Below the pieces are notes generated by a model. It worked only from the letters and a program-made list of their open reading frames with translations, did not search any database and was not told the origin of the DNA. 64,000 bases of DNA from Escherichia coli (GTDB taxonomy: Bacteria; Pseudomonadota; Gammaproteobacteria; Enterobacterales; Enterobacteriaceae), in NCBI RefSeq assembly GCF_003334765.1, contig NZ_QOWT01000001.1. The stretch is one strand, 5' to 3'. Below are positions 21,737-38,110 of the stretch, piece by piece. Numbering within the stretch: position 1 is the first letter of the stretch; every line of letters starts with the position of its first letter. The position numbers and the translations under genes are program-made.

Positions 21737-21937
21737 TGAACCCCTCCAGACAGAAAAGACAAAACTTCCTTAAAGCTAACCCGTTGCTACTGAAACGACA
21801 AGCGACAGCGGGCTGAATGGTGGTTAAAACGTCATACAGGAATCCTCTGAAAGCGGAGCCGTTTCGTTCACGGGCTTGAAAAAGCGCCCAATGTATTCCA
21901 GGCTTATCTAACACGCTGATAAACAAGAGGACGGAAT

Positions 21938-22276
21938 ATGAACAAGAATATGGCAGGAATTCTGAGTGCAGCGGCGGTATTAACCATGCTGGCGGGTTGT
22001 ACGGCTTATGATCGTACCAAAGACCAGTTTGTACAGCCTGTGGTGAAAGACGTCAAAAAAGGCATGAGCCGGGCGCAGGTTGCACAAATTGCGGGTAAAC
22101 CTTCGTCTGAAGTGAGCATGATCCATGCTCGCGGTACTTGCCAGACCTACATCCTGGGTCAACGTGATGGTAAAGCAGAAACCTACTTTGTCGCGTTAGA
22201 TGATACCGGACATGTCATCAACTCCGGTTATCAGACCTGTGCTGAATACGACACTGATCCACAGGCTGCGAAGTAA
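21938..22276 (+). CDS. osmE: Osmotically inducible lipoprotein E
   Basis: 112 aa; lipobox LAGC after signal peptide. Confidence 0.92.
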
Positions 22277-22306
22277 TCAATTCGTCTGAAAGCTTGAGTA
22301 ACAACG

Positions 22307-22335
22307 GAAACCGGCCATTGCGCCGGTTTTTTTTG
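22307..22335 (+). terminator. Rho-independent terminator after osmE
   Basis: Hairpin ccggccattgcgccgg followed by T8. Confidence 0.75.
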
Positions 22336-22373
22336 GCCTGAGTTCTTAATTATCTTCGCGAATTATTTGCCCG

Positions 22374-22395
22374 AAATGTGAAGAGGGTCATAACC
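22374..22395. promoter_or_regulatory. CRP (cAMP receptor protein) site in the chb promoter region
   Basis: aaTGTGAagagggTCATAac matches TGTGA-N6-TCACA with one mismatch. Confidence 0.6.
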
Positions 22396-22574
22396 ACAGG
22401 TCAAGGAGAAACAATTTATAAGGTCAAAGAAATACTATTGCTCAGGTCTATACCGTATACTCCTTTCAGCCACAAAAAAAGTCATGTTGGTTTCGCAAGT
22501 TACCCAGAGCATGGAAGCAGGTTAAGGCTTGCGGAGTGTCTGGCTGACAGATAATCGTCGATGAGGGCAGTTTT

Positions 22575-22895
22575 ATGGAAAAGAAACACATTTATCTGTT
22601 TTGTTCTGCGGGCATGTCTACCTCTTTACTGGTATCAAAAATGCGCGCACAGGCAGAAAAATATGAAGTTCCGGTCATTATTGAAGCATTTCCGGAAACA
22701 CTGGCTGGTGAAAAAGGTCAGAATGCCGATGTCGTGTTATTAGGGCCGCAGATTGCTTATATGTTGCCCGAAATCCAGCGTTTGTTACCCAACAAACCGG
22801 TTGAAGTAATTGACTCGCTGCTTTATGGCAAAGTCGATGGTTTAGGCGTGCTTAAGGCTGCGGTTGCAGCGATTAAAAAAGCCGCAGCAAATTAA
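22575..22895 (+). CDS. chbB: PTS chitobiose-specific EIIB component
   Basis: 106 aa; [24 protein letters not shown] with active-site Cys. Confidence 0.95.
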
Positions 22896-22979
22896 TTTAT
22901 TTTAAATTTTCCCGTCAAAGAGTTATTTCATAAATCAATACCGCAATATTTAAATTGCGGTTTTTAAGGGTATTTTTCT
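22896..22979 (+). promoter_or_regulatory. chbB-chbC intergenic region (known ChiX sRNA pairing/decoy region)
   Basis: 84-nt AT-rich spacer inside the operon; function assigned from the literature, the pairing site itself was not verified by eye. Confidence 0.45.
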
Positions 22980-24338
22980 ATGAGTAATGTTATTGCATCG
23001 CTTGAAAAGGTACTCCTCCCTTTTGCAGTTAAAATAGGAAAGCAGCCACACGTTAATGCAATCAAAAATGGCTTTATTCGCTTAATGCCGTTAACCCTTG
23101 CGGGGGCCATGTTTGTATTAATTAACAACGTTTTTCTAAGCTTTGGGGAGGGGTCGTTTTTTTATTCCTTAGGTATTCGCCTCGACGCCTCAACCATTGA
23201 AACACTTAATGGTCTGAAAGGTATTGGCGGCAACGTATATAACGGAACATTAGGAATAATGTCTTTAATGGCACCGTTCTTTATTGGCATGGCGCTGGCA
23301 GAAGAGCGTAAAGTCGATGCGCTGGCGGCTGGGTTGTTATCCGTTGCAGCATTTATGACCGTCACCCCATATAGTGTCGGTGAGGCCTATGCGGTTGGTG
23401 CAAACTGGTTAGGTGGGGCGAATATCATCTCCGGGATTATTATTGGCCTGGTGGTGGCAGAAATGTTTACCTTTATTGTCCGCCGCAATTGGGTCATTAA
23501 ACTGCCCGACAGCGTACCTGCTTCAGTATCGCGTTCCTTCTCGGCATTAATTCCCGGCTTTATTATTCTTTCCGTGATGGGGATTATTGCCTGGGCGTTG
23601 AATACCTGGGGCACCAACTTCCATCAGATCATTATGGATACCATCTCAACCCCACTGGCATCGTTGGGTAGCGTGGTGGGCTGGGCCTATGTGATCTTTG
23701 TTCCACTGCTCTGGTTCTTCGGTATTCATGGCGCGCTGGCGCTGACCGCACTGGACAACGGCATTATGACGCCGTGGGCACTGGAAAATATCGCGACCTA
23801 TCAGCAATATGGTTCCGTCGAAGCGGCGCTGGCAGCCGGTAAGACCTTCCATATCTGGGCCAAGCCGATGCTGGACTCCTTTATTTTCCTTGGGGGCAGT
23901 GGTGCGACTTTAGGCCTGATCCTGGCTATCTTTATCGCCTCTCGCCGTGCTGATTATCGTCAGGTGGCAAAACTGGCGCTGCCGTCCGGCATCTTCCAGA
24001 TTAACGAACCGATTCTGTTTGGTCTGCCAATTATCATGAACCCGGTGATGTTTATCCCGTTTGTACTGGTACAACCGATTCTGGCGGCAATCACCCTCGC
24101 AGCGTACTACATGGGCATTATTCCTCCGGTGACCAATATTGCACCGTGGACCATGCCAACCGGTCTGGGAGCCTTCTTTAACACCAACGGTAGCGTCGCC
24201 GCATTGCTGGTCGCACTCTTCAACCTTGGCATCGCAACGTTAATTTATCTGCCCTTTGTTGTGGTGGCTAACAAAGCACAAAATGCGATTGATAAAGAAG
24301 AGAGCGAAGAAGATATCGCTAACGCCCTGAAATTTTAA
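22980..24338 (+). CDS. chbC: PTS chitobiose-specific EIIC permease
   Basis: 452-aa polytopic membrane protein. Confidence 0.95.
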
Positions 24339-33260: not shown

Positions 33261-33392
33261 CCCCGTTCTCCTGATCTTATTATTTCTATCACTGCGTAGC
33301 AGTCATAGTGTTGGCGCAAGATTAACAGAACTGTGAGCTGGCTCTTATATTCAAATGGAATTGCTTATTCCAGAAAGGTGATTTTTGCCTTT

Positions 33393-37824: not shown

Positions 37825-38110
37825 CATTTCCTCCTATAGGCTGATTTCAGTCTGGCACCGAATCAGCGGAAAGTGAAGAAATTAACAATATGATTTATTG
37901 GAGCTTTATTTAAAATTTTGCAGATAAATATATATAAATAAAAATCTGTTTTCGCCACATGCTTATTCAAAAAATGAAATAAGAATACATTGCTAAGTTA
38001 TTCGCGCCTTTTTATAATTCGTTACCTTTCCAGGGACGCTAATCTTTGATCCTTAAGAAAGTTTCCGGGACCGCGATGGTCTCTTTTTTTGTTGTACGGA
38101 CTCTTGATAA

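What the first reader, a model, noticed from the sequence alone, without database searches (positions are those of the whole stretch)
22336..22574. chb promoter region with a CRP site and long untranslated leader
TGTGA-N6-TCATA at 22374-22395 sits about 180 nt upstream of the chbB start, consistent with a catabolite-controlled, multi-regulator promoter (NagC and ChbR sites are expected nearby but I could not place them confidently).
Basis: partly seen in the sequence, partly recalled or inferred. Interest (0 to 1): 0.25.

Follow-up and report, generated by a model that had tools for sequence, protein, structure and literature searches.

The report
Known E. coli chitobiose operon promoter

Summary
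The window is E. coli. Positions 22277-22574 are the osmE-chbB spacer upstream of chbBCARFG. TGTGA-N6-TCATA is exactly where stated (22377-22392; 22-mer 22374-22395). A CRP matrix gives about 12 bits (rank 3 of about 64,000 positions). That is mid-range for real sites but only modestly above chance.

Conservation is the decisive evidence. In 76 species, aligned without gaps on the -10 box, TGTGA sits at the same offset in 75. The six spacer bases take 29 different forms. The layout persists even in Aeromonas.

- The published 'chbB distal' NagC operator is 22345-22367.
- Two 19-bp direct repeats, 23 bp apart (22398-22416 and 22421-22439), are the likely ChbR sites.
- A conserved -10 box, TATACT, is at 22456-22461.

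The inferred start is near 22468. That puts CRP at about -83.5 and gives a leader of about 107 nt. The leader has no conserved sequence, fixed length, significant fold or Rfam match. The promoter-proximal NagC site could not be placed.

Regulation of chb by NagC, ChbR and CAP was published in 2004. Verdict: observation confirmed, interpretation supported, already known, low interest.

The parts
22302..22335 (+). Intrinsic terminator of osmE (GC-rich hairpin followed by T8). It marks the upstream limit of the chb control region.
   Evidence: The RNA fold gives -16.6 kcal/mol, z = -2.3. The hairpin and T-run are conserved across genera.
22345..22367 (.). Distal NagC operator, CTTAATTATCTTCGCGAATTATT
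   Evidence: The identical string is listed as 'chbB distal' in FITBAR Table 1 (PMC3098098). A NagC matrix built without this site ranks it first in the whole window at 16.4 bits. The median score at this offset in 76 species is 16.5 bits, and 82% score above 5.
22374..22395 (.). cAMP-CRP (CAP) site AAATGTGAAGAGGGTCATAACC, centre 22384.5, about -83.5 from the inferred start
   Evidence: TGTGA is at the same offset in 75 of 76 species with 29 different spacers. The right half is TCATA in 39 species, TCAAA in 25 and TCAAC in 9.
22398..22416 (+). Direct repeat 1, AGGTCAAGGAGAAACAATT: probable promoter-distal ChbR (AraC-family) half-site
   Evidence: It is the most conserved block of the region (mean 1.78 bits per column over 76 species). 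It shares 15 of 19 bases with repeat 2 at a 23-bp offset, the only such pair among 63,958 positions in the window.
22421..22439 (+). Direct repeat 2, AGGTCAAAGAAATACTATT: probable promoter-proximal ChbR half-site, lying over the -35 region
   Evidence: Only its 3' part, GAA(A/T)TA(C/T)C at 22429-22436, is conserved outside Escherichia, Citrobacter and Salmonella.
22456..22461 (+). -10 hexamer TATACT, within the invariant block CCGTATACTC (22453-22462). There is no recognisable -35, so the promoter is activator-dependent.
   Evidence: GTATACT was the alignment anchor, found in 76 of the 81 upstream regions examined, so its own invariance is by construction; the neighbouring bases of 22453-22462 are also conserved. 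The consensus scan finds no sigma-70-type promoter on the + strand.
22468..22468 (+). Inferred transcription start (A, 7 nt after the -10, within a conserved CA). Not verified experimentally here.
   Evidence: Inferred from the position of the -10 box and a conserved CA dinucleotide. No start-site data could be retrieved.
22460..22482 (.). Tentative promoter-proximal NagC operator, CTCCTTTCAGCCACAAAAAAAGT, overlapping the start site; centre 115 bp from the distal operator's centre
   Evidence: It has the TT/AA pairs that are the only invariant positions of NagC sites. It is the best NagC-matrix position downstream of the CRP site in 30 of 76 species, with scores up to 9.8 bits. It scores poorly in E. 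coli itself, and 22410-22432 (3.7 bits) is an alternative. Inconclusive.
22469..22574 (+). 5' untranslated leader of chbB (about 107 nt), with Shine-Dalgarno GAGGG at 22563-22567
   Evidence: The distance from the -10 to the ATG varies from 78 to 148 nt among species. The sequence is conserved only within Escherichia, Citrobacter and Salmonella. The fold z-score is -0.39, and there is no Rfam match inside the leader.
22575..22895 (+). chbB, the PTS chitobiose IIB subunit and first gene of chbBCARFG

Best explanation
This is the regulatory region of the E. coli chbBCARFG (chitobiose PTS and catabolism) operon. The elements, read 5' to 3', are:
- the osmE terminator;
- the distal NagC operator (22345-22367);
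- a cAMP-CRP site (22374-22395);
- two 19-bp direct repeats for the AraC-family regulator ChbR (22398-22416 and 22421-22439), the second lying over the missing -35;
- a -10 box, TATACT (22456-22461);
- an inferred start near 22468;
- a leader of about 107 nt.

Proposed mechanism: without chitobiose, NagC and ChbR repress. NagC is bound at the distal operator and at a weaker promoter-proximal one, probably looping the DNA. When chitobiose is taken up, GlcNAc-6-P made from it releases NagC, and a chitobiose-derived signal turns ChbR into an activator. The promoter lacks a -35, so it needs ChbR bound next to RNA polymerase. cAMP-CRP, bound one step further upstream at about -83.5, acts as co-activator, which puts the operon under catabolite control.

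Shown here: the identity of the locus, the sequence elements, their conservation and their fixed spacing. Taken from the literature: regulation by the three proteins and the identity of the distal NagC site. Inferred: the start site, the assignment of the repeats to ChbR, the proximal NagC site and looping.
For: Locus identity: 100% match in 5426 of 5426 complete E. coli genomes, annotated osmE, chbB, chbC, with the full chbBCARFG order.

CRP site: exact TGTGA-N6-TCATA. One hit against 0.14 expected. About 12 bits, rank 3 in the window.

Phylogenetic footprint: 76 species align without gaps from the NagC site to the -10 box. TGTGA is in register in 75 of 76, and there are 29 distinct spacers. 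Mean information is 1.71 bits per column for the left half (22374-81) and 1.37 for the right half (22388-95), against 1.04 for the spacer and 0.27-0.43 for the unconstrained flanks. The same layout is found in Aeromonas.

NagC: the distal site matches the published list verbatim and ranks first with a leave-one-out matrix.

ChbR repeats: 15 of 19 bases identical at a 23-bp offset, unique in the window.

No -35.

Literature: chb is controlled by ChbR (AraC family, dual repressor/activator), NagC and cAMP/CAP (PMC12791066; PMC3551598; PMC4098024).
Against: - The primary paper with the footprints and the mapped start site (Plumbridge & Pellegrini 2004) is not held. I therefore could not confirm that the published CAP footprint is this exact 22-mer.
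- The CRP matrix was built from sites recalled from memory. By itself it gives a score that chance reaches about 1.8 times per 64 kb.
- The right half-site is sub-consensus (TCATA, never TCACA, in any species).
- The start site is inferred only, so the -83.5 position carries an uncertainty of at least 1 bp.
- The proximal NagC operator could not be placed with confidence.
Confidence: 0.9

Rival explanations
1. The TGTGA-N6-TCATA match is a chance resemblance to the CRP consensus with no function. Catabolite control of chb would then act through a different site or indirectly.
For: Matrix hits of this strength are expected about 1.8 times per 64 kb of shuffled sequence. The right half-site is imperfect.
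Against: TGTGA is in register in 75 of 76 species, including Proteus and Buttiauxella, and also in Aeromonas, while the six spacer bases vary (29 versions). No other CRP-like match lies in the intergenic region. The next-best local matrix hit, 22039-22060, is inside the osmE coding sequence.
Confidence: 0.03
2. The conserved block is bound by something other than CRP. One possibility is an extension of the ChbR footprint: GGTCA at 22386-22390 repeats the GGTCA core of the two direct repeats. Another is an extension of the NagC footprint.
For: GGGTCA at 22385-22390 resembles the AGGTCA core of the repeats at 22398 and 22421. The right half is never the CRP consensus TCACA in 76 species.
Against: It lies only 13 bp from repeat 1, whereas the repeats are 23 bp apart, so a 19-bp ChbR half-site there would overlap repeat 1. 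The invariant part is TGTGA, which is not part of the repeat motif. Literature names CAP as the third regulator.
Confidence: 0.05
3. The site serves an antisense promoter reading towards osmE: on the - strand, ATGACC, an 18-nt spacer, then AATAAT (22391 to 22362).
For: The consensus scan reports this single promoter-like match, 9 of 12 positions.
Against: One match against 1.6 expected by chance. It overlaps the CRP and NagC sites, which explain the conservation. There is nothing to transcribe on that strand except the antisense of the osmE terminator.
Confidence: 0.02

Closest known systems
E. coli chbB promoter (chbBp) as described by Plumbridge & Pellegrini 2004, Mol Microbiol 52:437 (NagC, ChbR, CAP)
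   Same: Same locus and same sequence (100% identity to E. coli genomes). The published distal NagC operator string is present verbatim. The three-regulator logic is as summarised.
   Different: Nothing differs in the sequence. I could not read the paper to compare its mapped start site and its CAP, ChbR and proximal NagC coordinates with mine.
Promoters co-activated by an AraC-family regulator and CRP: araBAD, rhaBAD, melAB (from general knowledge, not tested here)
   Same: A direct-repeat activator site abuts or overlaps a poor -35, and a CRP site lies further upstream at about -80 to -93.
   Different: chb adds a second, unrelated repressor (NagC, ROK family) whose distal operator lies just upstream of the CRP site, so two separate sugar-derived signals are required.
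NagC two-operator repression loops: nagE-nagB (from general knowledge) and chiP
   Same: A high-affinity 23-bp operator with TT/AA at positions +/-5,6 and C at -11. A second, weaker site is expected about 11 helical turns away.
   Different: Here the presumed loop would enclose the sites of two activators. The second operator could not be placed computationally.

Membership tests
cAMP-CRP (CAP) binding site | 22-bp two-fold symmetric site with TGTGA-N6-TCACA cores | tested here: met
   TGTGA matches 5 of 5 and TCATA 4 of 5 core bases, with the exact 6-bp spacer. The pattern occurs once in the window against 0.14 expected.
cAMP-CRP (CAP) binding site | Matrix score within the range of experimentally known sites | tested here: met
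   About 12 bits, above 9 of 18 leave-one-out scores, rank 3 of 63,979.
cAMP-CRP (CAP) binding site | Purifying selection on the half-sites but not on the spacer, in orthologous promoters | tested here: met
   TGTGA is in register in 75 of 76 species, with 29 distinct spacers. The right half is TCA(T/A)(A/C) in 73 of 76. The layout is also present in Aeromonas.
cAMP-CRP (CAP) binding site | Centre at a helically phased activating position (-61.5, -71.5, -82.5, -92.5) relative to the start site | tested here: inconclusive
   The centre is 71.5 bp upstream of the first base of the -10 box, which gives about -83.5 for an inferred start at 22468. The distance is invariant across species, but the start site was not verified.
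cAMP-CRP (CAP) binding site | Binding by cAMP-CRP and crp/cya dependence of transcription | not testable with these tools
   Secondary literature only: chb is regulated by cAMP/CAP. The primary paper is not held. chbB was not found in the held supplements of a CRP ChIP-exo paper.
NagC operator (ROK-family repressor) | 23-bp quasi-palindrome with TT at -6,-5 and AA at +5,+6, and C or G at +/-11 in high-affinity sites | tested here: met
   For the distal site 22345-22367: the TT/AA pairs are present, C is at -11, it is identical to the published 'chbB distal' site, and it ranks first with the leave-one-out matrix.
NagC operator (ROK-family repressor) | A second, promoter-proximal operator allowing cooperative repression | tested here: inconclusive
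   22460-22482 keeps the TT/AA pairs in 31 of 76 species and is the best-scoring position in 30 of 76. 22410-22432 is an alternative. Neither scores well in E. coli.
AraC-family activator site (ChbR) | Two direct-repeat half-sites of about 17-19 bp roughly two helical turns apart, with the proximal one abutting or overlapping the -35 | tested here: met
   22398-22416 and 22421-22439 share 15 of 19 bases at a 23-bp offset, a pair unique in the window. The second repeat covers about -47 to -29 relative to the inferred start.
AraC-family activator site (ChbR) | Binding by ChbR protein | not testable with these tools
   The assignment rests on the anatomy and on my recollection of the 2004 paper. 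chbR is encoded in the operon.
Sigma-70 promoter | -10 and -35 hexamers with a 16-18 bp spacer | tested here: not met
   The -10 box TATACT lies in a conserved block, but the scan finds no promoter on the + strand and by eye no acceptable -35 lies 16-18 bp upstream of it. This fits an activator-dependent promoter rather than a consensus one.
Structured or regulatory 5' leader RNA | Conserved sequence or structure, or a match to a known RNA family | tested here: not met
   No Rfam match inside the leader at E <= 1. Fold z = -0.39. Length and sequence are not conserved between genera.

The most novel reading that the evidence does not exclude
In none of the 76 species examined does the right half of the CRP site reach the consensus TCACA (TCATA 39, TCAAA 25, TCAAC 9). 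Yet it is under constraint and its position is fixed, 21 bp from TGTGA to the first ChbR repeat. This could mean the site is kept deliberately weak, so that CRP occupies it only cooperatively with activator-form ChbR. Catabolite control would then be conditional on the inducer, as at melAB. The 2004 study may already have addressed this; I could not read it.
Probability: 0.25. Interest if true: 0.25.

Novelty: already known. Interest (0 to 1): 0.08.

Why it matters
It matters little for discovery. The chb promoter and its control by NagC, ChbR and CAP have been textbook material since 2004. What this check adds is a precise map of the elements in window coordinates. It also shows that the CRP-ChbR-promoter module keeps base-exact spacing across Enterobacterales and into Aeromonas, whereas the distal NagC operator and the leader are evolutionarily more labile.

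Tried and rejected
- Primary and related papers: Plumbridge & Pellegrini 2004, Verma & Mahadevan 2012 and El Qaidi & Plumbridge 2008 are not held.
- Full-text search for the site sequences found nothing.
- Start-site and CRP ChIP-exo supplements gave no chbB entry (Cappable-seq; Thomason 2015 not held; Latif 2018).
- Leader as a functional RNA: rejected. The only Rfam match in 22200-23100 is a sub-threshold frnS hit at 22852-22965, outside the leader. The fold is no better than shuffles. Length and sequence are unconserved.
- A third AGGTCT unit at 22444-22449, another 23 bp downstream, as a third ChbR half-site: rejected. It shares only 9 of 19 bases with the others and is conserved only within Escherichia.
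- The generic repeat finder did not report the 19-bp repeats. They were tested directly instead.
- Antisense promoter match on the - strand: no better than chance.

Full report
**Identity of the locus.** The 1.2 kb around the finding matches all 5426 complete E. coli genomes, nearly all at 99% identity or more. The features under the match are annotated osmE, chbB and chbC. In one such genome the gene order is astDBE, spy, ves, cho, nadE, osmE, chbB, chbC, chbA, chbR, celF (chbF), chbG. In window coordinates osmE is 21938-22276 and chbB is 22575-22895. The finding therefore lies in the 298-bp osmE-chbB spacer, the control region of the chitobiose operon.

**The observation.** The sequence at 22374-22395 is AAATGTGAAGAGGGTCATAACC. 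TGTGA is at 22377-22381, followed by a 6-bp spacer and TCATA at 22388-22392, exactly as stated. The centre (22384.5) is 190 nt upstream of the chbB ATG, and the 3' edge of the 22-mer is 180 nt upstream. TGTGA-N6-TCAYA occurs once in the window on both strands, against 0.14 expected from shuffles.

It scores the site about 12 bits. That is rank 3 of 63,979 positions and above 9 of the 18 leave-one-out scores of the training sites. However, shuffled windows reach that score 1.8 times per 64 kb, so the matrix alone is weak evidence.

**Comparative evidence.** I fetched 80 chbB loci from species-representative genomes. A gapped alignment of 23 genera shows discrete conserved blocks separated by free sequence. 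In 76 of the 81 upstream regions examined (the window plus the 80 loci), the region from about 125 bp upstream of the -10 box to just past it aligns without a single gap when anchored on GTATACT.
- TGTGA is in register in 75 of the 76. The exception carries a 1-nt indel.
- The six spacer bases take 29 different forms.
- The right half is TCATA (39), TCAAA (25) or TCAAC (9).
- Mean information is 1.71 bits per column for the left half and 1.37 for the right half, against 1.04 for the spacer and 0.27-0.43 for unconstrained flanks.
- The set includes Proteus, Buttiauxella and Cedecea.
- In Aeromonas, which lacks the anchor, the order TGTGA, then AGGTCAA 21 bp further on, then GAAATACC, then a TACAAT -10 box is still present.

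This is the signature of a real CRP site held at a fixed distance from its partners.

- **Distal NagC operator.** The FITBAR paper lists CTTAATTATCTTCGCGAATTATT as the 'chbB distal' NagC site (PMC3098098 Table 1). That string is window 22345-22367, 7 bp upstream of the CRP 22-mer. A NagC matrix built from the other nine listed sites ranks it first in the whole window at 16.4 bits. It has the invariant TT/AA pairs and the C at -11 that mark high-affinity NagC sites.
- **ChbR repeats.** 22398-22416 (AGGTCAAGGAGAAACAATT) and 22421-22439 (AGGTCAAAGAAATACTATT) share 15 of 19 bases at a 23-bp offset. This is the only such pair among 63,958 positions in the window. Repeat 1 is the most conserved block of the region at 1.78 bits per column. 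Repeat 2 keeps only GAA(A/T)TA(C/T)C outside Escherichia, Citrobacter and Salmonella. Two direct repeats, with the proximal one over the -35, is the usual layout for an AraC-family activator such as ChbR. I recall the 2004 paper describing two 19-bp direct repeats, but I could not verify this.
- **Promoter.** CCGTATACTC (22453-22462) is conserved around the anchor, giving a -10 box TATACT at 22456-22461. No acceptable -35 exists, and the consensus scan finds no + strand promoter. This fits an activator-dependent promoter.
- **Start site.** A conserved CA at 22467-22468 suggests a start at A22468. This is an inference.
- **Resulting positions.** CRP is centred at about -83.5, the distal NagC centre at about -112, and the repeats cover about -70 to -29.
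- **Upstream boundary.** The osmE terminator hairpin with its T8 run lies at 22302-22335 (-16.6 kcal/mol).

**Proximal NagC operator.** This could not be settled. Positions 22460-22482 overlap the start site. They keep the TT/AA pairs, are the best NagC-matrix position in 30 of 76 species (up to 9.8 bits in some Citrobacter), and lie 115 bp, about 11 helical turns, from the distal centre. But they score poorly in E. coli itself. The alternative is 22410-22432 at 3.7 bits.

**The leader.** The inferred leader (22469-22574, about 107 nt) is longer than most, but it shows no sign of function of its own.
- The distance from the -10 box to the ATG ranges from 78 to 148 nt among species.
- The sequence is conserved only among the closest genera.
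- The fold is no more stable than shuffles (z = -0.39).
- No Rfam family matches inside it.

**Mechanism.** The literature held here states three things. chb is controlled by ChbR (AraC family, dual repressor/activator), NagC and cAMP/CAP. NagC and ChbR both repress without chitobiose. Two signals are needed for induction (PMC12791066; PMC3551598; PMC4098024; all citing Plumbridge & Pellegrini 2004).

The anatomy found here fits that account. NagC operators bracket the activator sites. ChbR sits against RNA polymerase at a promoter with no -35. CRP lies one step upstream as co-activator, an arrangement like araBAD, rhaBAD and melAB (general knowledge).

**Comparison and novelty.** This is not merely similar to the known chb promoter; it is that promoter. 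Nothing in the window departs from the E. coli reference. The one detail I cannot attribute to prior work is that the right CRP half-site is never consensus in any of 76 species. That could reflect selection for weak, ChbR-dependent CRP binding. It is a modest hypothesis, and the primary paper may already cover it.

**Verdict.** Observation confirmed; interpretation supported, with a corrected split between promoter and leader; already known; low interest.

Noticed in passing
window 22527-22536 (locus L083, E. coli DETEC-S560): One natural isolate carries an IS903B insertion inside the chbB leader, about 40 nt upstream of the ATG, with target duplication around 22527-22536. It separates chbB from its regulated promoter. 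I recall that IS insertions upstream of this operon were described as activating the 'cryptic cel' phenotype.
   Followed up: partly
window 22908-22916 (locus L082, strain LR-72) and about 22767 onward (locus L084, strain FDAARGOS_1249): In strain LR-72, IS1B is inserted in the chbB-chbC spacer, with a 9-bp duplication at 22908-22916. In strain FDAARGOS_1249, two IS5-family copies disrupt chbB and the chbB-chbC spacer. In all, 24 of 5426 genomes lack an 80% contiguous match to 21900-23100.
   Followed up: partly
window 22896-22979: The chbB-chbC spacer is AT-rich and contains an 8-bp-stem hairpin at 22940-22961, which flags as terminator-like on the - strand. A sub-threshold frnS Rfam hit spans 22852-22965 (25.9 bits against a gathering score of 60) and is probably chance. 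Literature says chb mRNA acts as a decoy for the ChiX sRNA. I recall the pairing site being in this spacer but did not map it.
   Followed up: no
window 22388-22392 and the orthologous positions in L002-L081: The right half of the CRP site is never the consensus TCACA in 76 species (TCATA 39, TCAAA 25, TCAAC 9), although it is constrained.
   Followed up: partly
L059, L062-L069, L076 (Proteus) and L065 (Kosakonia oryzendophytica), at the position orthologous to window 22345-22367: These species keep the CRP site, the ChbR repeat and the -10 box at the same spacing, but have no recognisable distal NagC operator at the orthologous position. Only 82% of the 76 species score above 5 bits there. 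NagC control of chb may have been gained or lost independently of the core module.
   Followed up: no
window 37961-37983: This is the second-best NagC-matrix hit in the window: GCTTATTCAAAAAATGAAATAAG, 14.7 bits. It lies in the ydiY-pfkB region. I do not know of NagC control there.
   Followed up: partly
window 55844-55865 and 33329-33350: These are the two CRP-matrix hits that outscore the chb site. AAGTGCGAGGTGTGTCACACCT (14.4 bits) lies in the ppsR-aroH region. AACTGTGAGCTGGCTCTTATAT (13.5 bits) lies in the ydjM-tcyP region. Their conservation was not examined.
   Followed up: partly
window 22348-22373: A 13-bp tandem, AATTATCTTCGCG then AATTATTTGCCCG (77% identity), spans the right part of the distal NagC operator and the gap before the CRP site. 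A weak second NagC-like register at 22358-22380 (2.7 bits) overlaps the CRP left half.
   Followed up: no
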